A stretch of DNA of 64,000 bases from Laetmonice hystrix. Taxonomy: Eukaryota. Made by a program: the position numbers and the translations under genes. Below the pieces are notes generated by a model that had not been told where the DNA came from, ran no database searches, and saw nothing but the letters and a program-made list of their open reading frames with translations. Below are positions 1 through 63,408 of this stretch, piece after piece; within the stretch, counting starts at the first letter, position 1, and each line of letters starts with the position of its first letter. The stretch covers positions 12,896,001-12,960,000 of the forward strand of contig OZ249450.1 of NCBI GenBank assembly GCA_965235115.1, given 5' to 3'.

Positions 1-304
1 AATCATTGTCAACCTCCCCATTATAGATCTCAGGGCTGTCTGGCCTGGGTAAAGTGTACCTGTATATTCTCTCTGGACCGTCAATTGCATCGAGGCAGCC
101 GAAGCTAAATCTCACCCAAAAAAAAATTGTATTGAAAACATTCATTGGAGGAGACCCCCGCCACATGAACGAATCGCATCTTCGGCACTCGCCTCGGCCA
201 AATTCCCTTCAAATTTACGGCCTCTGTATATTCTAGATGAACAGTTTGGGACAGGGTATGAGTAGGGAAACTTCACGCCAGCCACTTGAGGAAGAGAAAC
301 ATAC

Positions 305-334
305 CAAAACCTGCGAAATGTAATTCGCCGACAT
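305..334 (-). other. candidate first coding exon of an unidentified gene running off the left edge (MSANYISQVL, phase 0)
   Basis: Minus strand reads agaaaATGTCGGCGAATTACATTTCGCAGGTTTTG|GTATGT: A-rich start context, then a good donor. A palindromic CRE site (TGACGTCA, 489-496) lies about 150 nt upstream. No in-window second exon keeps the frame open. Confidence 0.25.
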
Positions 335-1122
335 TTTCTGGATATCCACCTCGTTGTCTCCAAAAGAAATACTCAATAGAGTAGTGACAGCAAGAAGTTG
401 TGTAAAGGTGTCGCTTGCCGAAGGGGCATTTTTTATCGCATCCTAGTTGCTCTTCTTTTGCCTTTACTCGTCACTGATTACTAATTGCTGACGTCACGCG
501 TCGAATCTTACCTAACGATCGTCACCGCTACTTGATCGAGTTTCCCACCTTTCAGTATTGTTGTTTACGCGATCTCTGTATAACGCGGCATTCACAACGA
601 CAAAATTGGCAGGATCTACTTAACCACTTCATAAAGTGGTCCTAGTTTATTGACGCAACCAAATATGCCCCTATGTGATAGGTGTTGTATCTAGGGAGGC
701 CAGTGTCCCAGGTATAGAAGCGGGTCAGTATGATCAGTCATCTGTCCAATACAGTTGTACATGTACTTCATGGTCCACTGGGAGAGGCGAGCCACAGCCC
801 CGTGTAGGCGGAGCAACTCCGGCTCGTCTCTAGCTCGACAATGCCGGAGGTTAAGGTTAATCACAGTAAATCGTTATTATTGTTAACCAAGGATGCAATA
901 CGGAACTACCGGTGGGTCATTTTCAATACTTACATTATGTAAAAAATGTGGCAGGCGGCCAGGATTGGATACGTTGATTATGAGGTCAACGAATTTGGCA
1001 AAAGAATGCAATATGTTCTTCTTTGCAAAGTCATTCTGAAGCGTCACTCCTTGTTTTTAACCTGTAAAGTGTTTTAACATGTGTAAACTATATGGTGTAT
1101 CGTAGTTCACGGTTCACTGTGT

Positions 1123-1206
1123 CTGCTACTGCTGTTGTTGTTTTTGTTTGTTGTTGTTGCTGCTGCTGTTGTTTGTTGTGGTGGTTGTTGTTGCTGCTGT
1201 TGCTGC
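1123..1206. repeat. imperfect (GTT/GCT)n trinucleotide microsatellite
   Basis: Run of ctg/gtt/gct triplets; produces the poly-Q/poly-V/poly-C mini-ORFs in the track. Confidence 0.85.
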
Positions 1207-1517
1207 ATCATGTACCCATCCCCGGCGACCTTCGGTTTATTCTCACCCTGTAGATGGGTGTTTCGCGCAAAAACTAGTTTTTCCCTGGCATGTAGCAAGA
1301 TTATCTGGATTCCCGTGTGACGTCTTTAACATTAAATATACGTCAGATATTGTGACAAGGTAATGGTATCTGGACCTTGACGAGGTCACGTTTAGAGTCA
1401 TGTAGGCCTATATATAGGTGTACCCATTCCCAACGCCTAGCGTGTCCGAACGTCTTCAGCGTCTTTGGTCGACATTACGTAAATGGCAGCAAGCACCGGT
1501 CTCAAGTGACAAAACAG

Positions 1518-2739
1518 GTAAGTGATCTTTGCTGGCTACATCAAAGAACAAGGTTGTACTGATACAAAGAAATGATGGACACACAAAGACATCAAACATC
1601 GAGGGTGCAAACCCTGGGCATGTGATTTCAGCTGTAGCGACAATGACCATGTAAACTATATCCATTAATATTAGGTGCTTGGTAAGAATTTCTTTTCACT
1701 ATGTGATATAGGGCGTAGACTCATGTTTAAAGTACGTTTTGACTTTAGACCGGTATGTATACTGTAGGCCTACTTGCGTCCATATACAGGGATTCGGATC
1801 TGATGCATTGGTTTATAACATGTAGAAGTTTACAGGTGGCTGGAATGCTACCATATGTAGTTCTGTGGTTCTTTATTTGAACTAAGATTTGCCTAAATAT
1901 CTCGTTTATGACTGGAGGTCGTAACTAACCCCTTTCGAGGCTCAAAATTAAAACAGGGTGTTGTAAATACTCAGGGGCTGAACCTACTAACTTCGGGGAA
2001 AGCAATACGTGCTCCTGAGCAATCAGCGATAGGCCAACTGCTGCATAGCGTGCTGCAAAAAGTGAAACGACGAATTGGCAGTTAAAGCAATCAGAAAGTG
2101 TCTCTCATTTCAATGACTCCAAGATGCAGACATGGGCTGTTAGGTTAGCTTAGACTACGTAAGCCAATCAATGTAATGTATACCGACAGAAATGGAGAAA
2201 TCGGTTGATATTTAACATTCCAGTGCCGTTGTCGCCATGAAGCGAACGGCTCATGGTTGGTTGTTGACCTGGCATTGACTTGAACAGCTAGTGAAATTCT
2301 TTGGTTCATCGCCTGGTGAATTTTACTTCAAGTCAATACCATGTCAACTATTTTGTCAACAACCGGCGATAAAACTATAGCGGAAATGTTTGACAAATCG
2401 AGTATTGAAAAGTGCCAATGCCATTCGCTATCTCTCGACAAATCTCTAGCCGGCCCGGAATAGCGAGGCATGGACGGGACGGCCACGCTGTCTATAACAC
2501 AGATCTGATCTCTAGATGGTATCGTGTCTGTACTGAGTAGGTTATTGTAAATTGACGTTCTGGCTATAGTAGACTACAGACAATGAATGAGAGAGAGGGC
2601 TGAGTTTCAATTTTTGTTCAACATGCTGAGCAGCATGTTTTATTAGGGGATCTTGATGTTTTCACATGCTTGTACTATTAATCTGATTCTTTATGTTATT
2701 TATTAACCTAGTTTATTATTATTTTTTTGTTATTTCTAG
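1518..2739 (+). other. candidate 5'-UTR intron of GPCR1
   Basis: Consensus donor CAG|GTAAGT at 1518. T-rich tract ending tttctAG at 2739. TATA-like ctatatatag near 1408. The pairing of these sites is inferred. Confidence 0.35.
2259..2364. other. imperfect long hairpin (inverted repeat)
   Basis: gttgacctggcattgacttgaa (2263-2284) pairs 20/22 with ttcaagtcaataccatgtcaac (2327-2348). An inner agtgaaattc/gaattttact stem and an outer ggttgttgac/gtcaacaacc match are also present. Confidence 0.7.
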
Positions 2740-3041
2740 GAGGGCTGGCGTTTGGACACTTTAAGATATAGACTAGGCCAATGAAGTTCTCTGGTGATAT
2801 GTTGTGGAGGATATCCATTGAAAAAGACTTCTAGGAATTTTCTGTTAGAGAGGACTCTACTTCTGCATGAATTGATCTTCATTCCGTCAACGAGGAAGCG
2901 GAGTATTTTGTACGTGGCATCTGAAAAAGAAAACATTTGTTAATATTAAAAACCACGAAGGTAAAAGAAAGGAGAGAAGCAGAAACGGAAACTGACCCAA
3001 GGAACACGCGTATTTCACAAGAAATAAATACACACCCGGTG

Positions 3042-4202
3042 ATGACAGATTATAACGTCACGCACACAGAGATAGTAAGAGGAAGTGACGTCACAGAGTG
3101 GCAGTACCCGACAACCTCGTTTACAGTCGTCCACGGGTTCGACGATTTACTCAATACGTCAACCAATCTCTCAGCTACCGGGGCGACACCTGGTGTCGGG
3201 GTTAACCAGTATGATGCCTTGCAACACGTGATGTTGTTCTACGTCCCGTTCATCATGCTGTTTGGAACGTTTGGAAATATTCTTAGTGCTACTGTCATGG
3301 CCAGAAAAACATTTCGCAGGATACCCATGTCAGTGTACCTTTTTGCCCTGGCTGTGTTTGATACAGTGTTTCTGTTTGCAAATGCCACATTTAGGATGTG
3401 GGTAGGGCTTGTTTTCAATGTTCAATTTAGTCAGATCAGCTCGTGGGGCTGTAAGATTTATGTTTACCTGCTCTACTCGTCTAAAAGTATAAGTTCCTGG
3501 CTGATCGTGGCGGTGACTGTAGAACGAGCCATCGTGATTGCACTGCCGCACAAGTCTCGGGTGTTGTCCACCAGGCGGCGCTCTCTGTACGTCGTGGCGG
3601 CGCTCGTCTCGTGTGGGATGTTGTATTTTATCTGTATGTTATACTCGTTCGATTTGGTGCAGACCTCACTTACTAAGACGCCTCTGTGTTACATCCGAGA
3701 CAAAACAACCTTCAACGTCCTTCATGTCATTGACGTCTTTTTATACACTGGAATTCCTTTCGTCATATTGATTGCTGCAAACTCCATTTTGGTTCGGTCG
3801 CTTTTCAACCGCGTTGCAACTACCAAAAATATATCCACCCGAGGGAACCCTTCCCAAAATCTACGTGTTACCTTGTTAGTTTTATTAATAAACTGTGCGT
3901 TTATTGTGCTGACCCTGCCAATGGGAGTTATAAATCTGCTCATATCATTTAATATCGTTGTATATGAGGAGGTGTTCCCAATATGGGTATCTCTCTATAT
4001 TGTCAACGTTACAAACCATGGGCTGAACTTTGTCTTCTATTGCATCAGCGGGCCAATGTTCCGGAAAGAAGTTCTCGAGCTTTGTTCAAAATCCCGAAGT
4101 CGCTCCTATACGCCCAATCCGTCTTGTAGGTCGTCAACTATATCGACCTTTTCGTCTGGTGTTTTTTCTGTCTCGGAGACGATGGGCACATGGAAGATAT
4201 AG
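3042..4202 (+). CDS. class A (rhodopsin-like) GPCR, FMRFamide/neuropeptide-receptor-like, 386 aa, intronless CDS (GPCR1)
   Basis: Seven hydrophobic segments. TM1 GTFGN, TM2 LAVFD, ECL1 WGC, TM3 VERA (DRY variant), ECL2 Cys (LCYI), TM5 IPF, TM6 FxxxTLP, TM7 NHGLNFVFY, helix 8 FRKE. N-terminal sequons NVT/NTS/NLS. First ATG is at 3042; the ORF track starts at an upstream TTG. Confidence 0.95.
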   Translation: MTDYNVTHTEIVRGSDVTEWQYPTTSFTVVHGFDDLLNTSTNLSATGATPGVGVNQYDALQHVMLFYVPFIMLFGTFGNILSATVMARKTFRRIPMSVYLFALAVFDTVFLFANATFRMWVGLVFNVQFSQISSWGCKIYVYLLYSSKSISSWLIVAVTVERAIVIALPHKSRVLSTRRRSLYVVAALVSCGMLYFICMLYSFDLVQTSLTKTPLCYIRDKTTFNVLHVIDVFLYTGIPFVILIAANSILVRSLFNRVATTKNISTRGNPSQNLRVTLLVLLINCAFIVLTLPMGVINLLISFNIVVYEEVFPIWVSLYIVNVTNHGLNFVFYCISGPMFRKEVLELCSKSRSRSYTPNPSCRSSTISTFSSGVFSVSETMGTWKI

Positions 4203-5444
4203 TCATTGGATGTCAGAGAAAACATGCAATGGCATCGTAACTGTGACACAAGCGAAGGGGACGTCTGGTCAGATGTCTGGTCAGGCATAAAGTTCGCTTC
4301 AAGATTTGACATTCTGCCACCTGCAAGCTGTTCCTATATCGCGTGCAGCATTACTGAAGTTGTGAGGGGATTGGGTTACATTGCCTTCTACGTGTTAAGA
4401 TGGTCTACCAACTTCAAAAAGTCCCAGGACCACAACTTTATTTGACAGCTCTCCGATTTCTGCATATGTGCTATAATTCCATCGAAATGAGTACCCTACC
4501 GGGCCGTTGCAGAATATTTCAACAGAATTTATTTGGTATTTATATTAGTACTATAGGTATTGTGTAGTTGCGGTGATATGTAAATGAGAGGAATTCATTA
4601 TAATTGTGGAAGGGCCCTTGCATGAAACGATCGCAAATTCTAATGTATCAGTTGGAATACAGATCGTAAGTGTGCAGTAAATTTCTGGATCTTAATAATA
4701 AATAATTAATAAAATCCTCTTTGTTCTGATGATTGAATCTGTAAATAATAATATTCTGCACATAGTGCTCCCATTCTATATCTTCCCAGTTTACCCCCGT
4801 AACTTTCAACCGCAGTTATTTTTTGAATTCGGCCAAGGTATAATTCTCCCGGAGAATTGTCCTACGGTGGCGTTTTCTCAAGGGTGGCAGTCCTTCGGAG
4901 TCATTGTATCCGGACGGTTTTCCTGCCACTGTTACATTTATTGCATCATCGTTTTTGTGAATAACAGAAATAGACATTGACAGAAATTTTACTTGACGCT
5001 TACGATAAAAGAACGGCGTGTAGGGTTAATTGAAGGGGTGTATACTGGATCGTTGCCGGGGGGGGGGGGGGGGGTGAGGGATGTGGAGGTGACTATATGG
5101 TTATTATATATTTATTTATTATTTATGTATTTTATTATTTTTTATCTTCTATAAAGAGAGAAAATGTGTGTCTACTTTAGAGAGAGAGAAACGTTTTTAT
5201 TATTTTTTTGGAGTTAATTGGCTAGGTGATATGGAAGTCGATTGATCTGCCTGAGAGCATTTAGAGGGCCACCCTCCTCTATTTATGCGGATGTTTCCCA
5301 GTGTTCAGGGAGAGTGGCTGCACGGCTTTGTGAACTCCCAACTAAAGTGGATGTATGCATGCGCACAATTTATCATGTGACGGACAAAGGTAGAGCTTCA
5401 GGTATCGAAGCCTCTGCGCATGTCTCCGGGCTCCAATATATCTG

Positions 5445-5609
5445 TATAAATATCGGTTCGCCCACCTGAAATATCTCGGCAACACAGGGCGTTGTTTCAG
5501 AATGCTAGAGGGAACGCATCACTTTACAGTTTAGAGACGACTTGCTATTGTTTTACGTCCACATAAAATCAAAAGAAGATTTCAGCGCGTTTTTTGATTG
5601 CAAATATAG
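5445..5609 (+). promoter_or_regulatory. candidate TATA promoter plus non-coding first exon of GPCR2
   Basis: TATAAATA at 5445-5452. Donor TAG|GTAAGT at 5610. A matching strong acceptor (gttttcttctttcacAG, 8287) sits immediately before the GPCR2 ATG. The link between them is inferred. Confidence 0.4.
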
Positions 5610-5930
5610 GTAAGTGATAATTCTTCTTAGAGTAAAATCGTCAACTCGAGATATCGAAAGATTTTAAAACATTGACACAGCAGGACGTGAAAATATACAA
5701 AAAAGTCTGAAAACATTGACACAGTATTCAATAACACGAGTCTTGTTCATACTGGAAGTGATGGCACTTGAAATGTCTCCGCGCACTCAGTTGAGATCAG
5801 TGAAAAACTTTAAACAAAAACTGGCAGCACATGGAACAATTATGAATCTATAATATTCTATGCAAACCATCACAAACTGTTTATCTTGTACTGTTTGGAA
5901 CAGTTCTCTGCTCCTGTTGTGTACTGTACA

Positions 5931-6167
5931 GTTGCAAAATCCCGGATGTAGCCCCCCAGTTGCAAAATCCTGGATGTAGGCCCTCCCAGTTGCAAAATCC
6001 TGGATGTAGGCCCTCCCAGTTGCAAAACCCTGGATGTCGCCCCCAGTTGCAAAATCCTGGATGCCGCCCCCAGTTGCAAAATCCTGGATGTAGCCCCCCC
6101 CCCCCAGTTGCAAAATCCTAGACATAACCCCCCCTCCCCCAGTTGCAAAATCCTGGATCCGCCCCTG
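5931..6167. repeat. 8-copy ~30-bp tandem array ending in a MITE-type terminus
   Basis: Unit is a C-tract plus agttgcaaaatcctggatg(t/c)(a/c)g. The last copy ends ctggatccgcccctg, the reverse complement of the common CAGGGGCGGATCCAG invertebrate MITE end. Confidence 0.85.
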
Positions 6168-6764
6168 GCTTCCCCCTCACTTTTCTTACAGTGATTACCG
6201 TTGATACGTCGTATGACCCACTATTGCATATTTTGGGAAATGACCCCCAGCAAACTCGTCCGGTAGAGTTTTTGGGGGCTGATAGTAACAGCGCAGTGTG
6301 ATCGGTTAGTTTTGCGCTATTGCATGCCAGGAAGCAGGACTGAAACTTTGAAAGTATTCCTCTCGAAGGTGTTTGCTTAGAAATTTTTTTATATTTGTCT
6401 CTTAATCATTATATTTGTCTCTTAATCATTGTATCGAGGCTCACGATTCAATTTTTTGTAACTCAAGCTCGACTAAAGGCCCAGGACTGAAACTTTGAAA
6501 GCTCGACTAAAAGTTTTATATTTGTATCTTAATCATTGTGTCGAGGCTCATGATTCAATTTTATATAACTTAATGGCCTCAGGTTAGATAAGTTGATCTT
6601 TATTTTAAAATGCAAGTGTTCATTTGCAAAGGTGAAGTTCAAATTTCTGTGGGACTGATCTGAAATATGCAGCTTCCATTCATATTTTCCGGGTCGACTG
6701 TATATATCGAGGGAGTATATAGAGTAATAACTTATAGATCTTAGGTAATCGAATTAAAAAGTCC

Positions 6765-6975
6765 TTTTTTACATTTGTCGTAAAAGTTTTTCACATAATG
6801 TAGTAAAATATTTTTTTCACATTCAGCGTAAATTATTTTTACATTTGACGGAAGGTAGTTTTTACATATGCGGTAGATTTTTTCACATTTGACGGACGTT
6901 TTCACGTTTGTCGTAAATATTTGTTACATATGACGGCGTTTTTACATTTAGCGGAATTTTTACATTTGAGGGTGC
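6765..6975. repeat. degenerate ~22-25-bp tandem repeat (ttttacat(t/a)tg.cg core)
   Basis: About 8-9 recurrences of tttt(c)acat.(t/a)g.cg at irregular spacing. Confidence 0.55.
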
Positions 6976-8287
6976 AACACACGTTGTTATGTTCAACAAA
7001 TCCCAGTACTGGTTATTAAGAGTACATCTTGGTGTCAGGAGTAGAGGAGCACAACCATTGGGTTAGCCTGTTACCACCTTTTAAAGTGAACAAATACATG
7101 TTTCAAAATTACGTGAAGGCCTACCAATTTTCTCGTTCACTGAAGCAGTTACTGTGACTGGATGTCAGTTGTTCTCACCGTTGGATCCAAGTCCCCGCTG
7201 GACACAAAGTCTGTCTCACACCAGGGCCGTAGCTAGCGGGAGGGGGGCGTGGGGGGGGGGGGGGGGCAGCTGCCCTATGTGAACCCCAGAAAATTGTTCT
7301 GAGACCCCCCTGGCTGGGTGGGAAAATTAGATGCTCGCGGAGAAGAGTTATGTGCGAGGCGACACGAAAACCGCCGATTTCCAACAATATGCACCGATTC
7401 CCCACAAATCGTTCCGACACGATTACACATCACACATTACGATTTCCTACGACACGACAAGACAAACGGTCGTACGAGAGAAAAAATTTCAACATGATGA
7501 AACACCACGATACGCCAGAAAATTTATTCTGTCTTGTCGTATCTCACATATTCTTGTCGTGTCGTTAGAAAATCGTGTAGTGTGAGGTAGGCTTTAGGCA
7601 AAGCAAGTTTCACATTGAATTGCTAGAATGGATCCATTTCGCCCTTTTCATCACTTTGAGCTCGTTGGTTCCGAAACCATCGCGGAATTGTCATTTCGCA
7701 CAAAGCCATGCCACATTGCAAAATACTCTTCTTTTACCAGAACTTCGCGCCAACTAAAATATCGGAACGTTAGGCGCCATAATCCGAGTAAATGATGTAT
7801 GTGTTAATGTGGTTTCACTGACGCCATTTTTGAAACTTTTTGTTGTTGGCTCACGACTCTTTTGTACGTTAGACCGTACTGGAGATATATAACATAGATC
7901 ATTTTCACGTATCAATACAAGTAATTCAGCTTGGATATTATATCCCATGCAACATTTATTATATCGCCGTTTAGAATAAGGACTCGGTCCCGGCGCCAGG
8001 TCCTATATCACACCATTGTGTCTGCAAACTAAGCCATTTTTGTCATCTCATTTATAGTAAGTTAATAAATGTATTGCGATATATAGCTGTGAAACACATA
8101 GTGGGAGGGGGCCCATTCCCCTTGTTTTTAACATGGCTGGGGGTCCCGCAGCCCCCTAAGTGTCTTGTCTTTTTTCACCACCAATGCAACCAGGCCATAG
8201 AACTAATCCTCTGGGTCCTCATCATATGTCTATACAGCGCAAAATTGCTTCCTTATGTTGAAGTATCGATGTTTTCTTCTTTCACAG

Positions 8288-9454
8288 ATGATGGCAAACT
8301 ACAGCGTAACCGAATCGTTAACGATGGCACCAACTGGTGACGAGAACACATCGTGGACCTCGGCCTTGGTGATCGTCACGGAAGGCCTCAAGGTGGCGCA
8401 CAACGATTCAGGCAATCTCTCAGCTACACAGGCGCCACCTAGCGTCGGCCCTGGGAAATACGGCACCTTGCAGTACGTTATGTTGTTCTACGTTCCGTTT
8501 ATTATTCTATTCGGAACCTTTGGGAATGTTCTGAGTGGAATTGTCATGATGAGAAAAACCTTTCGGAAGATTCCAATGTCAGTTTATCTGGTCAGTCTGG
8601 CTGTGTTTGACACCGTCTTTCTGTTTGCGAATGCCATGTTCCGCATGTGGGTCGGACTGCTGTTTAACGTACAGTTTAGTCAGATCAGCTCGTGGGGCTG
8701 TAAGATTTATGTTTACCTGCTCTACTCGTCTAAAAGTATAAGTTCCTGGCTGATCGTGGCGGTGACTGTAGAACGAGCCATCGTGATTGCACTGCCGCAC
8801 AAGTCTCGGGTGTTGTCCACCAGGCGGCGCTCTCTGTACGTCGTGGCGGCGCTCGTCTCGTGCGGGATGTTGTATTTTATCTGTATGTTGTACTCGTTCG
8901 AACTGGTGAAAACTGAACATACGAAGGAGGCTCTGTGTTACATCCGGGACAGAAAAACCTTCAACGTCCTTCACGTCATTGACGTCTTTTTGTACACCCT
9001 CATTCCGTTCGTCATGCTGATTGTTGCAAACTCCGTTTTGGTTTGGTCTCTTTGCAACCGTGCTGCATTTCCTGGGAAAACGACAACCGACGCCTCAACT
9101 CAGATGCAGACGACTCGCGTCACGGTCCTAGTTTTGACGATAAGCTGCGCATTTATCACCCTCACGCTGCCCATGGGGGTAATAAATCTACTTTTGTCGT
9201 TCGGAGTCGTTATGTACGAAAAGGTCTTTCCGGTATGGGTGGCGCTATATCTAACAAACGTCACCAACCATGGCGTCAACTTCGTGTTCTTCTGCCTTAG
9301 CGGACCCATGTTTCGGAAGGAGGTTTTGGAGCTGTTTTCAAAGTGTCGCCCTCGTATCCGCGGACACTTTTTGGACAGCAAGTCGTCCAGCCAACCAACC
9401 CTTGACTCCGCCGTACCGTCCGTATCTGGAAATGTGAGTGCCGTCGAGATTTAA
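8288..9454 (+). CDS. class A GPCR, paralog of GPCR1, 388 aa, intronless CDS (GPCR2)
   Basis: Same motif set: GTFGN, LAVFD, WGCK, VERA, LCYI, IPF, TLP, NHGVNFVFF, FRKE. Sequons NYS/NTS/NDS/NLS. ATG ATG directly follows a splice acceptor at 8287. Confidence 0.95.
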   Translation: MMANYSVTESLTMAPTGDENTSWTSALVIVTEGLKVAHNDSGNLSATQAPPSVGPGKYGTLQYVMLFYVPFIILFGTFGNVLSGIVMMRKTFRKIPMSVYLVSLAVFDTVFLFANAMFRMWVGLLFNVQFSQISSWGCKIYVYLLYSSKSISSWLIVAVTVERAIVIALPHKSRVLSTRRRSLYVVAALVSCGMLYFICMLYSFELVKTEHTKEALCYIRDRKTFNVLHVIDVFLYTLIPFVMLIVANSVLVWSLCNRAAFPGKTTTDASTQMQTTRVTVLVLTISCAFITLTLPMGVINLLLSFGVVMYEKVFPVWVALYLTNVTNHGVNFVFFCLSGPMFRKEVLELFSKCRPRIRGHFLDSKSSSQPTLDSAVPSVSGNVSAVEI

Positions 9455-9630
9455 CATTGGAACACTGTATGGGCGTTTGTTATTGAAGGCTAACCTATAA
9501 CTCTTATGTTCCGTGGAACAGATTGATTTTGTTGGTTACTAAACAATCTAACATGTATTGTGTTTACTTGTTGTATTAGAAGACAGGTTTCATCCCTATG
9601 CGCACGCAAAAGTGTTGATTTGTTAACGAC

Positions 9631-9872
9631 TGTATAGGCACTTTTCGACTGCATGCAGGGAGGCAGTTTTCCATGCAGTTTTTTGATGATCTAAAACCAA
9701 CACATTTCGGATGTTGGGGTCAAAGTAATGATCATTTTCCAGATCACGAGGTATTCCTTTCACAGATTCTATGGCTTTCACTGTGTTACACATCGTAGGG
9801 ACGTACCAGTAGAGCACCAGAAAACTATGTGAAAAACTGCCTCTCTGCATGCAGTCGAAAAGTGCCTTTACA
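9631..9872. mobile_element. MITE-like element with ~40-bp inverted repeats
   Basis: aggcacttttcgactgcatgcagggaggcagtttt (from 9636) and aaaactgcctctctgcatgcagtcgaaaagtgcct (to 9867) are reverse complements with 1 mismatch over 35 nt; the match extends to tgta/taca. Confidence 0.75.
9683..9772 (-). pseudogene. fragment of Maverick/Polinton (adintovirus)-type packaging ATPase, Walker B region
   Basis: Reads IESVKGIPRDLENDHYFDPNIRNVLVLDHQ. As recalled, invertebrate Maverick ATPases read IEFVKGIPxxLExDxYFDxNxRNLIVxDDQM. The second Walker B Asp appears to be His (GAT>CAT). No Walker A is present. Confidence 0.65.
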
Positions 9873-10900
9873 ACACTTCTTCATGTGGTTCATTTGCGCA
9901 TAACTGCATGTGTGCGCACAGAGATAAGTATACATCATATATTATATTCTGGCGTGTGAACATTACGTGGATCTGATTGATTAACTAGACATTAATAATG
10001 ATCCTGCGATAATTTTAAGAATTGATATAGGCCTATAGGCCTATCGTCATGTTGTGGATATTATATTCGTTTTAAATTTTGAAGTGTCCAGCCGCTGCAG
10101 TATTGCATAAAGAATGTTGTATGCTTATTAAATATAATATAACTATTATTTTTGATAGTTTTGCATGTAGTGGTCTGCAGTTGAAATATTCATCAGCCCA
10201 ACGCTGGTTATTTTTGGTGGAGGATCCGCATAGATAGGACAATGTATGTATTGATATTATATGTCATTATGCGAATAAAGTTTCCTCAAGGCGCGAATTC
10301 TGAGAACACCAACACTAATCATGCTGAATTTCACTTTCATCCAAAGCGCTCAGCAAGTCTGCTCCAAATATCGCCGAAAAATGAAGCCTGTATAAGAGGT
10401 AAATATTTTTCATACAACATGTTGATCATTTCATCATTGTATTTCAGATTTTAATGAAGTGTCACGCCATCAGAATAACAAAATTCCAAAGAGACATTTT
10501 CTTCATTTTCTGCCGACTTGCCTCCTTAATACGTGACACAGATAACGAGAAACGTGAGGTAATTATTGGACAGTTTTACATGGCGATATTAGCTAGCAAA
10601 ATGTTATTATTCTGGAGTTGTGTTTTTCTAATTAGCTGTCCAGCTAGCTGTCAGTATGATACAGTGATCTGAATGATCTCACCTCCAGCTCTTCATTTCT
10701 CTACATGTATTTTCCATTAACAGACCGATGTGACCTTTTAGTTAAATAATTTTCCCCATTAATACATTTAAGGCTTACTAACGAGCAACAAATCTGCTGC
10801 CTTAATTTACTTTAAGTATAAATAGACCTAACCATGGATATTTCTTAGGGTTTAAGTCTAAGTTTAAGTGATAAGGGGGGAATTGAACTTAAGATGTGGC

Positions 10901-61026: not shown

Positions 61027-61380
61027 TTTACACCTACATAATCTGTACATATATATTCATTCATACAAAGTTTGTTGATATGTATTGAACAAATTCTGCT
61101 CTATGATAACCTGGCCATATAATATACCCTGGAGCGTTTGAGGCAAAAGTACCGTAAGGATATGTATGTCCATCAAGTAACCCTTCAAACATAGATCTAT
61201 ACAGCGTATTAACCTACATTTTACATGTCAAAGATTGGTCATGTCTCGTTACGGTCTAGACTTGTCATATGCCGTTCTCAGTGGATGATTAAGCACGTAG
61301 AAGAATCAGGTTTATAGTGTCAGGAAATAAACGAGTTGTTTCTATAAACTTGTTTGTTTTGTGCTGCAGATGCTGGGGTG

Positions 61381-63408
61381 ATGTCGAGCGGTGTGGCGTG
61401 TTGCCAGGCCAACCTGCGGGCATGGATCAGTGTGGTGGTTATCGTCCAGTGTGCTCTCATCCTCTTATACTGGGACGTCACACGCAACCAGTCTCCCCAG
61501 TCTCCCCAGTCTCCCCAGTCCCAGCCGCTCCGGTTTCAGAGCTGGCCCGGGGATGGCGGAGACGGAGGTGGCGACAGGACGGGAGCTCGCGACAACGAGG
61601 ACGTCGTGAGGAACGCCAACAACGAAGCGCCACCTGGTGTTAAAGGAGGGAACCACAAAAATAGCCACAACGAGGCAACCGGCATGAAAGACGCCGGTCC
61701 TCCAAAACAGGTACAGGAGGACGCTGGAAACATCAACACTGCTGAAAGTGGTGTTCTTCGTATGGCGCCATCTGGTGGACAAAAGTTACAAAACTCGCGA
61801 GACTCTTCACCCAACAAAAACAACGCAACTCGGCAAGAAAATCACTACGCAGATACCAACGCCCTCCAACAACCTAACCAACGTCAGATCAAAGTTTCAG
61901 ACAATGCTAACAAACCCCCAAACTTACTACAATCAAAACGGTTGATTGATGGTTGGTTGGTATCCTACCGACCTCTCTCAAGCATCAAACCAACGAATAA
62001 GGTTCACGTGTTGCGGACTTCACAACATCAAAATATCACTTTTGATCGAGGTAGAGAGAGTGCGCATCCAGGTCTATCTCCAAAACTTGGCATGCCTGGG
62101 GTTAAGGGAAATATAACGTGGCGCTCTGACCTTGGACCACACGTCCACTCACCTATTGACCTCAACGAAAAGGTCAACTTCACCGACCCATACTCTGTCA
62201 ACGCCAGTAGCCAAATCTTTAACATGGAACCCATAGAAACGTTTTTGCAAAGATTCCCAACTTTGCCAGCGGTCTTTCAGTTGAAACCGGGAGATGACGT
62301 GTTCTCTCGGTATTTTATCAAAAATGGCGCCAGCCTCTGTTTTACTGGGGGCACGGCGCATGCGTCTGACGCGGCGGGTAAGATGTCCTACGACGGGTGT
62401 CTCTGTGAGAAAGGCTGGCATGGACGCTACTGTAGCATCCCGGAGTCGGTTTACTTCTCGACGGGGTCCCGCTTTGTCGAGGGTCTCAAACCTCGCAATG
62501 TCTCGCGGCGCGTGATTTCGGCCATGGCTTTCAATATGGAGTTCGAATTACTGGAAGCGAGGCTGCATGAGTTGCACGATGTCGTGGATGTTTTTATCAT
62601 ACTGGAATCGAATTACACCAACTATGGAGAATCGAAACCGTTACGGTTACTGCAGAGACTGCGAGACGGATACCTGAAGGAGTTTCACTCCAAGATTCTT
62701 TATCTGTTCTGGGGACGATTCCCGTCCGGTGGGAGGGAAGACGGCTGGATTGTTGACCAATACATGAGAATGTTTATTGGACAAGCAGGGATGCGACGCA
62801 TTTCAAACTCCCGTCTTGATGACATTTTTCTCTACACAGACGCCGACGAACTGCCGTCTAGGGAAGCCATTTTGTTTTTACGAATGCACGACGGTTACTC
62901 GGAACCGTTCGGTATTTCTCTCCGCTGGTCGGTGTTCGGATTCTTTTGGCGCCAGCTCGACGCAACTCGCGTTATGATTGGCTGTACAGTGGGAATGTTC
63001 AGATACGTGTTTAAAAATGACGGTTACCAGCTGAGGTCGGGCGACTACCAGGCTCAGTCAAACCGTATGCTCCATGCCTATATTAGATCTGGTGCTTTCG
63101 TTTACGAATGGCACCTTGGAGATAACTCGGCGTTCGCCGGCTGGCATTGCTCCTGGTGCCTGCCACCAGTGCGCGTGCGCACCAAGCTGACTTCCGCCAT
63201 TAACGCTGATTTCCCGAGGTGGGGCGACTTTCCACAGAAACTCCAGTTGTCCTATCTCCGACATTTGATTAAGTCAGGCACGTGGTTTGACGACAAGACC
63301 AGGTTTGGCCGCTTGGTCACAATGAGTGAAGAGCCAACCTTTGCACCAAAATACTTACTTGATAACTATAGTAAGTTTAAGTATTTACTTGATCTAGAAG
63401 CTGCTTAG
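61381..63408 (+). CDS. MGAT3: beta-1,4-mannosyl-glycoprotein 4-beta-N-acetylglucosaminyltransferase (GnT-III-like, GT17), 675 aa type II membrane protein
   Basis: Short tail, then TM (ISVVVIVQCALILLYW) and a long stem. Cys motif CLCEKGWHGRYCSIP; RRVISAMAFNMEFELLEARLHELHDVVDVFIILESNYTNYGESKPL; DxD in DDIFLYTDADELP; FAGWHCSWC. All match recalled GnT-III motifs. Acceptor tgctgcAG at 61369 precedes the ATG at 61381. Single coding exon, as in vertebrate MGAT3. Orthology versus paralogy was not tested. Confidence 0.92.
   Translation: MSSGVACCQANLRAWISVVVIVQCALILLYWDVTRNQSPQSPQSPQSQPLRFQSWPGDGGDGGGDRTGARDNEDVVRNANNEAPPGVKGGNHKNSHNEATGMKDAGPPKQVQEDAGNINTAESGVLRMAPSGGQKLQNSRDSSPNKNNATRQENHYADTNALQQPNQRQIKVSDNANKPPNLLQSKRLIDGWLVSYRPLSSIKPTNKVHVLRTSQHQNITFDRGRESAHPGLSPKLGMPGVKGNITWRSDLGPHVHSPIDLNEKVNFTDPYSVNASSQIFNMEPIETFLQRFPTLPAVFQLKPGDDVFSRYFIKNGASLCFTGGTAHASDAAGKMSYDGCLCEKGWHGRYCSIPESVYFSTGSRFVEGLKPRNVSRRVISAMAFNMEFELLEARLHELHDVVDVFIILESNYTNYGESKPLRLLQRLRDGYLKEFHSKILYLFWGRFPSGGREDGWIVDQYMRMFIGQAGMRRISNSRLDDIFLYTDADELPSREAILFLRMHDGYSEPFGISLRWSVFGFFWRQLDATRVMIGCTVGMFRYVFKNDGYQLRSGDYQAQSNRMLHAYIRSGAFVYEWHLGDNSAFAGWHCSWCLPPVRVRTKLTSAINADFPRWGDFPQKLQLSYLRHLIKSGTWFDDKTRFGRLVTMSEEPTFAPKYLLDNYSKFKYLLDLEAA

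What the first reader, a model, noticed from the sequence alone, without database searches (positions are those of the whole stretch)
9631..9872. Maverick/Polinton-virus ATPase fragment packaged between inverted repeats next to GPCR2
Seen: ~40-bp inverted repeats enclose ~150 bp whose minus strand encodes ...AIESVKGIPRDLENDHYFDPNIRNVLVLDHQ, starting ~180 nt after the GPCR2 stop. Recalled: this matches the segment leading into Walker B of the FtsK/A32-like packaging ATPase of invertebrate Mavericks/adintoviruses. Inference: a small TIR element has captured a piece of an endogenous DNA virus, or it is an extreme deletion derivative. If inside the GPCR2 3' UTR, the arms would form dsRNA and the cargo would be antisense to viral ATPase mRNA, a possible source of antiviral small RNAs.
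Basis: partly seen in the sequence, partly recalled or inferred. Interest (0 to 1): 0.7.

Follow-up and report, generated by a model that had tools for sequence, protein, structure and literature searches.

The report
Mini-transposon carrying virus scrap, RNA-edited
A 330-base jumping DNA element carries a 104-base scrap of a resident Maverick virus gene and sits in the tail of a receptor gene's transcript, where its matching ends likely fold into a hairpin that the host's RNA-editing enzyme rewrites; the viral scrap itself is likely an inert passenger.

Summary
Its centre (9690-9793, minus strand) is 87-90% identical to the zinc-finger/A32 packaging-ATPase gene of a resident non-autonomous Maverick family (AGTAG ends, 6-bp duplications). 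The arms are not Maverick ends but those of a CACTA(TRC)-like family, so this is capture, not a deletion derivative. The cargo decays neutrally (13/13/14 changes by codon position; 6 of 12 copies broken). One run that behaves as RNA (GT..AG splice into the GPCR start) tiles through the element to just before an AATAAA; all 8 differences there are A>G and lie in the arms, against 3 of 16 elsewhere. That fits ADAR editing of a 3' UTR hairpin. A second copy shows three A>G as well. The viral piece lies in the loop, antisense, with no perfect 26-mer to 9 of 11 Maverick ATPase-gene copies compared, so an antiviral small-RNA role is unlikely though not excluded. One sample only.

The parts
9594..9923 (+). 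Whole non-autonomous CACTA(TRC)-like MITE copy, 330 bp; left end CCCTATG, right end eroded
   Evidence: 12 near-full copies
9592..9593 (+). Left 2-bp target-site duplication (AT)
9924..9925 (+). Right 2-bp target-site duplication (AT)
9594..9693 (+). Left arm (this copy has deletions in its outer part); homologous to one end of a longer, cargo-free CCCTA family
9810..9923 (+). Right arm; 9833-9867 pairs with 9636-9670 in a predicted 35-bp uninterrupted helix
9690..9793 (-). Captured piece of a Maverick ZnF/A32-like packaging-ATPase gene, ending at the Walker B codons; antisense to the host transcript; lies in the hairpin loop
   Evidence: 87.5-90.4% identity to donor copies
9794..9812 (.). Short linker of unknown origin between cargo and right arm, seen in other copies too
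   Evidence: only a 10-nt match in the donor element
9636..9836 (+). Eight A>G RNA-versus-genome differences (9636, 9640, 9657, 9827, 9833, 9834, 9835, 9836), likely A-to-I editing
8288..9454 (+). Rhodopsin-family GPCR coding exon (GPCR2), 388 aa
789..911 (+). Upstream exon spliced (GT..AG, 7376 nt skipped) to the GPCR2 start in run X3
9455..10279 (+). Inferred GPCR2 3' UTR; X3 contigs tile to 10263; AATAAA at 10274

Best explanation
The feature is a 330-bp non-autonomous CACTA(TRC)-like miniature transposon that carries a 104-bp piece of a resident Maverick's packaging-ATPase gene, and this copy likely lies in the GPCR2 3' UTR, where its arms likely pair into a hairpin that host ADAR edits. 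Shown: element, ends, 2-bp duplications, family, donor identity, neutral decay of the cargo, and A>G changes confined to the arms in one run. Inferred: (1) a single capture, probably by template switching during gap repair at a short junction similarity, from an older member of the Maverick lineage; (2) spread in trans by a CACTA transposase that I did not find; (3) the run is RNA and the changes are A-to-I editing; (4) the cargo is a passive spacer with no protein or defence role, and editing defuses the double-stranded RNA.
For: Family: 12 matches covering most of the query, self included, the other 11 at 81-91%. Target duplication: 2-bp match in 6 of 8 copies with both ends found, which is 4 of 6 independent insertions since three are one duplicated locus. 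A sister 3.2-3.6 kb family with the same first 13 bp matches 3 of 3. CCC ends with 2-bp duplication are the TRC/CACTA signature (PMC4298943, passages read). Donor: 5.2-6.6 kb elements with 415-632 bp TIRs; 4 of 7 examined show AGTAG ends with a perfect 6-bp duplication; ORF hits zf-C2H2 and Pox_A32 above cut-off. The donor shares TIR sequence and a 92%-identical ORF piece with a longer copy encoding DNA_pol_B_2 and rve. Arms absent from 8 of 8 donor regions and present without cargo in 8 loci. All 10 independent copies fall on one side of a branch, support 74/78. Neutral cargo: 13/13/14, P = 0.98; 6 of 12 broken; cargo 89% versus core arms 94% pairwise. RNA: GT..AG joint in X3 where X1, X2 and X4 run unspliced over 8117-8368. 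8 of 8 differences in 9505-10263 are A>G versus 3 of 16 elsewhere (Fisher P = 2e-4). All 8 are in the arms, which hold 35 of 214 adenosines (P = 2e-7); 7 are predicted paired and 1 is unpaired, facing a C in the fold. An X1 contig equals the window over 8962-9664. 11 of 11 other copies have A at the five right-arm sites. The only genomic match for a second X3 piece has A at three places where X3 has G. A_deamin genes are present.
Against: All four runs are one sample and one study, their kind is not on record, and they are contigs, not reads. The difference table was cut (75 rows unseen). An X4 contig of the other haplotype has 3 unseen differences within 9535-9664, so alleles cannot be excluded there, although X3's G at 9657 lies within 31 nt of window-haplotype letters at 9671-9686. 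No locus-specific DNA contig was listed for the right arm. X3 coverage has a gap at 8890-8955 and is in five pieces, so one continuous transcript is inferred. X1 and X2 have no cover from 10140 and X4 almost none, so the 3' end rests on the AATAAA. No transposase with matching ends was found among the 6 of 12 Transposase_21 loci inspected. The single-capture branch is weakly supported. The lack of 5' G at the 8 sites is not significant.
Confidence: 0.75

Rival explanations
1. Mobile antisense cassette: transcribed copies supply piRNAs or siRNAs from the captured piece that silence the Maverick ATPase gene.
For: The cargo is antisense to the ATPase in the transcribed window copy and, judged by A>G on the same strand, in a second copy; n = 2. 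The donor family is young, 11 further copies 96-99% identical in protein over most of the length. 21-30 of 79 26-mers have at most 2 mismatches to young donor copies. Captured pieces act as siRNA reservoirs against donors in maize (PMC13317346, passages).
Against: The cargo is in the loop, not the stem. It diverges faster than the arms. Longest exact run to 9 of 11 Maverick ATPase-gene copies compared is 17 nt, with no perfect 26-mer. Editing generally opposes Dicer processing (recalled, no call).
Confidence: 0.08
2. The element and cargo are as described, but the A>G differences are allelic variants or assembly artefacts and the hairpin is not edited.
For: One sample, contigs only, cut tables; DNA contigs collapse alleles, and X3 has other private differences such as 8563 T>C.
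Against: Four adjacent A>G in a row, 8 of 8 of one type, all in the arms, ancestral A in the other copies, and the same pattern at a second locus.
Confidence: 0.1
3. The UTR hairpin has been co-opted to regulate GPCR2 (stability, localisation or translation through editing).
For: Core arms of this copy are 97% complementary, the highest of 8 copies measured (range 83-97%), and it appears expressed and edited.
Against: Both ends are eroded like other old copies; no orthologous locus was available to test conservation; DNA-transposon hairpins are edited wholesale in other animals (PMC4317174, passages).
Confidence: 0.05
4. Extreme internal deletion derivative of a Maverick.
For: The centre is Maverick sequence, and deleted Mavericks abound in this genome.
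Against: Arms share nothing with donor TIRs; ends are CCCTA with 2-bp duplication, not AGTAG with 6-bp; cargo-free relatives of the arms exist.
Confidence: 0.02

Closest known systems
TRC group of CACTA/EnSpm (CMC) transposons, e.g. Spongebob/EnSpm-4N1_HM (PMC4298943, passages read)
   Same: CCC termini, 2-bp target duplication, short non-autonomous members in invertebrates.
   Different: Arms of about 100-115 bp, both matching the same end of a longer family; interior is foreign viral sequence; no matching transposase found.
Pack-CACTA / Pack-TYPE elements and cargo-carrying MITEs of plants (PMC6379663 and PMC8903248, search listings and abstract starts only; PMC13317346, passages read)
   Same: Non-autonomous TIR element carrying a captured gene fragment and multiplying it.
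   Different: Animal host, MITE size, and the donor is an endogenous virus-like element; the word 'viral' does not occur in the plant review's main text.
Maverick/Polinton elements (PMC8097293, PMC9683012, PMC8969392, passages read)
   Same: The cargo's donor has long TIRs, AGT-type ends, 6-bp duplications and an A32-like packaging ATPase.
   Different: The window element has none of these ends. The donor itself is a 5-7 kb non-autonomous form that keeps an open zinc-finger-ATPase ORF.
ADAR hyper-editing of DNA-transposon inverted repeats in non-coding RNA (C. elegans, PMC4317174; coral, PMC5850803; passages read)
   Same: Clustered A>G in a transposon hairpin in a UTR, including runs of adenosines.
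   Different: Nothing in kind; only the viral antisense loop is peculiar.

Membership tests
CACTA/EnSpm, TRC group (non-autonomous) | CCC terminal bases | tested here: met
   CCCTATG/CATAGGG ends in family copies; right end eroded in the window copy
CACTA/EnSpm, TRC group (non-autonomous) | 2-bp target-site duplication | tested here: met
   4 of 6 independent insertions; 3 of 3 in the sister family
CACTA/EnSpm, TRC group (non-autonomous) | Autonomous partner: CACTA transposase between matching ends | tested here: inconclusive
   12 Transposase_21 matches; 6 inspected, none with these ends; no tblastn hit of 3 transposases in sister or longer relatives
MITE | Short, TIR-bounded, non-coding, multi-copy, uniform length | tested here: met
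   330-373 bp in 7 copies; one more interrupted by a ~1 kb insertion; copy number modest (12 near-full, a lower bound)
Maverick (window element) | AG..CT ends with 6-bp duplication and Maverick TIRs | tested here: not met
Maverick (donor of the cargo) | Long TIRs, AGT-type ends, 6-bp duplication | tested here: met
   4 of 7 copies with perfect 6-bp duplication; a fifth has AGTAG ends; two ends not resolved
Maverick (donor of the cargo) | A32/FtsK-like packaging ATPase | tested here: met
   Pox_A32 24.4 and 26.1 bits, cut-off 22.8; Walker A and B visible
Maverick (donor of the cargo) | Protein-primed polB and integrase in the element | tested here: not met
   No tblastn hit in the 5.2-kb copy tested, so it is non-autonomous; both genes are in related longer elements sharing its TIRs or its ATPase type
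Maverick (donor of the cargo) | Capsid proteins and protease in the lineage | tested here: inconclusive
   A 457-aa ORF in the longer relative hit neither Pfam nor NCBIfam; not folded
ADAR-edited dsRNA | Clustered A>G on the sense strand within predicted duplex | tested here: met
ADAR-edited dsRNA | Absent from DNA reads of the same individual | tested here: inconclusive
   X1 contig has A at 3 left-arm sites; other haplotype and right arm not visible
EVE-derived antiviral small-RNA locus | Small RNAs from the viral piece that target the virus | not testable with these tools
   No small-RNA run offered

The most novel reading that the evidence does not exclude
A host-tolerated MITE family packages a viral ATPase fragment and scatters it antisense into transcripts, making a mobile source of small RNAs against a Maverick lineage that is still multiplying in the same genome: one transposon arming the host against another.
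Probability: 0.08. Interest if true: 0.78.

Novelty: new variant of a known kind. Interest (0 to 1): 0.42.

Why it matters
It is a compact animal example of Pack-CACTA-type capture in which the cargo comes from an endogenous DNA virus, with donor lineage, carrier family and an expressed, apparently edited copy all in one genome. I found no description of this combination in three searches (listings only), which is weak evidence of absence. Each ingredient is known. It becomes important only if the loop yields small RNAs against the young Maverick family; that is testable with one small-RNA library.

Tried and rejected
The 80-aa frame alone gave no Pfam family and only an E 1.4 PDB match; the donor ATPase domain gave no informative PDB or NCBIfam hit. 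A protein product from the cargo was rejected: no codon-position bias, 6 of 12 copies broken. The indel and frameshift columns were wrong (end-gap setting) and were replaced; only its pairwise identities are used. The search for an autonomous partner failed: the other end of the longer cargo-free relatives was not found within 10 kb in 9 stretches, and the sister family has no transposase hit. The linker's origin was not found. No run was on record as RNA; lack of X3 cover beyond 10263 is not used as evidence. No host gene was identified around the second transcribed copy. An early idea that one 8.4-kb Maverick-like element lacks a polymerase was dropped: its 1181-aa ORF aligns weakly to polB motifs. 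Look-ups in the scan's own notes gave two unrelated notes and nothing by sequence or words. No paper supplements were read.

Full report
Observation. The inverted arms (9631-9693 and 9810-9872; 63 nt, 86%) and the quoted minus-strand peptide are in the sequence. They follow a rhodopsin-family GPCR whose stop is at 9454. The stretch folds far better than shuffles (z -10.9). The peptide alone is too short for library hits.

The element. A DNA search of the own genome (627 Mb) gave 66 matches. Twelve cover most of the query (self plus 11 at 81-91%), others cover the cargo only or one arm; counts are lower bounds. Flank comparison extends the element to 9594-9923, with ends CCCTATG and CATAGGG in better-kept copies. 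Eight copies have both ends; six show a 2-bp duplication (AT, AG, CA, and TA three times in one duplicated locus), i.e. 4 of 6 independent insertions. The same arm occurs without cargo as one end of a longer, decayed family in 8 loci. A younger 3.2-3.6 kb sister family shares the first 13 bp and has 2-bp duplications in 3 of 3 complete copies. CCC ends with a 2-bp duplication mark the TRC group of CACTA elements (PMC4298943, passages); 2-bp duplications are also reported for CMC MITEs (PMC6004678, passages). CACTA transposase ORFs exist in the genome (12 matches), but none of the 6 inspected has these ends. The mobilising enzyme is therefore inferred.

The cargo. Window 9690-9793 matches, at 87.5-90.4%, an ORF of about 493 aa with C2H2 fingers, Walker A and Walker B. 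The protein match is 28 of 35 residues, and the ORF scores above the Pox_A32 cut-off. It lies in 5.2-6.6 kb elements with 415-632 bp TIRs; 4 of 7 examined show AGTAG ends with perfect 6-bp duplications, the Maverick signature (PMC8097293, passages). The copy tested has no polymerase or integrase but shares TIR sequence and an ORF piece with a longer element that has DNA_pol_B_2, rve and its own ATPase. A related zinc-finger ATPase (47%) sits beside an integrase and a divergent polB-like ORF in an 8.4-kb AGTAGT-ended element. The arms match none of 8 donor regions, so the element is not a shrunken Maverick. The closest match is an old decayed copy (90.4%). The 10 independent MITE copies fall together in a 96-column tree with weak support (74/78; L008 and L012 left out as duplicates of L009). 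At the Walker B junction donor and arm are similar over about 10 nt, which suggests template switching; this is inference. The cargo shows no coding constraint: variable states 13/13/14 by codon position, and 6 of 12 copies have a stop or frameshift in 32 codons.

Expression and editing. Four runs of one sample hold the stretch, none on record as RNA. X3 (58 Mb of contigs) joins 911 to 8288 across a GT..AG intron, while X1, X2 and X4 run unspliced there. I therefore read X3 as RNA. Its contigs cover 8287-8889, 8956-9427, 9398-9534, 9505-9736 and 9707-10263, ending 11 nt before an AATAAA. Of 24 differences listed for X3 over window 1-10890, 8 fall in 9505-10263. All 8 are A>G and inside the arms; 3 of the other 16 are A>G (Fisher P = 2e-4). 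Seven are predicted paired and one is unpaired, facing a C in the fold. Four are consecutive. Other copies have A at these places with one exception at one site. A second X3 piece matches one genomic place only, another copy on contig C19, and differs by three A>G. The genome encodes A_deamin proteins (15 matches). Editing of DNA-transposon hairpins in non-coding RNA is well documented (PMC4317174, passages; PMC5850803, passages). Limits: one sample, contigs only, cut tables. The second haplotype has three unseen differences in the left-arm region, and there is no DNA contig for the right arm.

Mechanism. Most likely a CACTA-type end was duplicated around a captured scrap of Maverick DNA, the product was copied to a dozen or more sites, and one copy landed 140 nt behind the GPCR2 stop. 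In the mRNA the arms form a helix of about 35 bp with extensions, which ADAR edits. The viral piece is the antisense loop and is probably inert. For a defence role: antisense orientation in 2 of 2 transcribed copies, and 21-30 of 79 26-mers within two mismatches of young donors. Against it: loop position, faster decay than the arms (89% versus 94%), and a longest exact run of 17 nt to 9 of 11 Maverick ATPase-gene copies compared.

Novelty. Cargo capture by non-autonomous CACTA elements is known from plants (PMC13317346, passages; PMC6379663 and PMC8903248, listings). Searches for a MITE carrying a Maverick fragment, for Maverick-derived antisense small-RNA loci and for edited MITE hairpins listed no paper whose title or abstract start describes this combination; I did not read them in full. 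Verdict: a real feature, a new variant of known kinds, moderate interest, with a small chance of a more striking defence function.

Noticed in passing
window 789-911 to 8288: The GPCR2 transcript's 7.4-kb intron contains the whole paralogous GPCR1 gene (2925-4202) on the same strand; whether both genes share the upstream exon was not seen. Two ATGs in that exon are out of frame with GPCR2.
   Followed up: partly
window ~3440-3640 and ~8690-8890: GPCR1 and GPCR2 share a 188-nt identical run, 99-100% over about 200 nt against 47-83% elsewhere, which suggests gene conversion.
   Followed up: partly
L030, L028, L026, L029, L025 (G000 C3, C7, C8, C18): Young non-autonomous Maverick family (5-7 kb) that keeps an open zinc-finger plus A32 ATPase ORF. 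It shares TIRs with a longer Maverick whose own ATPase is only 35% identical, so it looks like a chimera of two lineages.
   Followed up: partly
L031-L036 (G000:C8:29,305,000-29,337,000): Five tandem copies of the donor ATPase region, 6.0-8.3 kb apart, all with open ORFs.
   Followed up: no
L085-L088 (G000:C5:26,976,208-26,984,605): Compact 8.4-kb AGTAGT-ended element with 6-bp duplication: integrase-chromodomain, zinc-finger ATPase and a zinc-finger-bearing divergent polB-like ORF; no other ORF of 170 aa or more was listed.
   Followed up: partly
G000:C3:4,246,772-4,248,584; C5:35,547,414-35,549,036; C11:30,251,885-30,258,106: Maverick ATPase genes in inverted pairs close together, suggesting palindromic rearranged elements.
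   Followed up: no
L081-L084 (G000:C19, 17.1-19.1 Mb): At least 8 decayed fragments of the same ATPase gene on C19, forming one well-supported group in the 4 tested, probably spread by segmental duplication; several MITE copies and half-copies on C19 are likewise duplicated.
   Followed up: partly
L192, L193, L195: Young (95-99%) 3.2-3.6 kb non-coding family with CCCTATGTGCACA ends and 2-bp duplications, implying recent activity of an unidentified matching transposase.
   Followed up: partly
window 61348-63408 +: 686-aa open frame with a Glyco_transf_17 domain and a weak EGF hit.
   Followed up: no
window ~5940-6170, ~6750-6980, ~7230-7600: Several high-copy repeats between the two GPCR genes, with very high depth in the DNA-like runs.
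   Followed up: no
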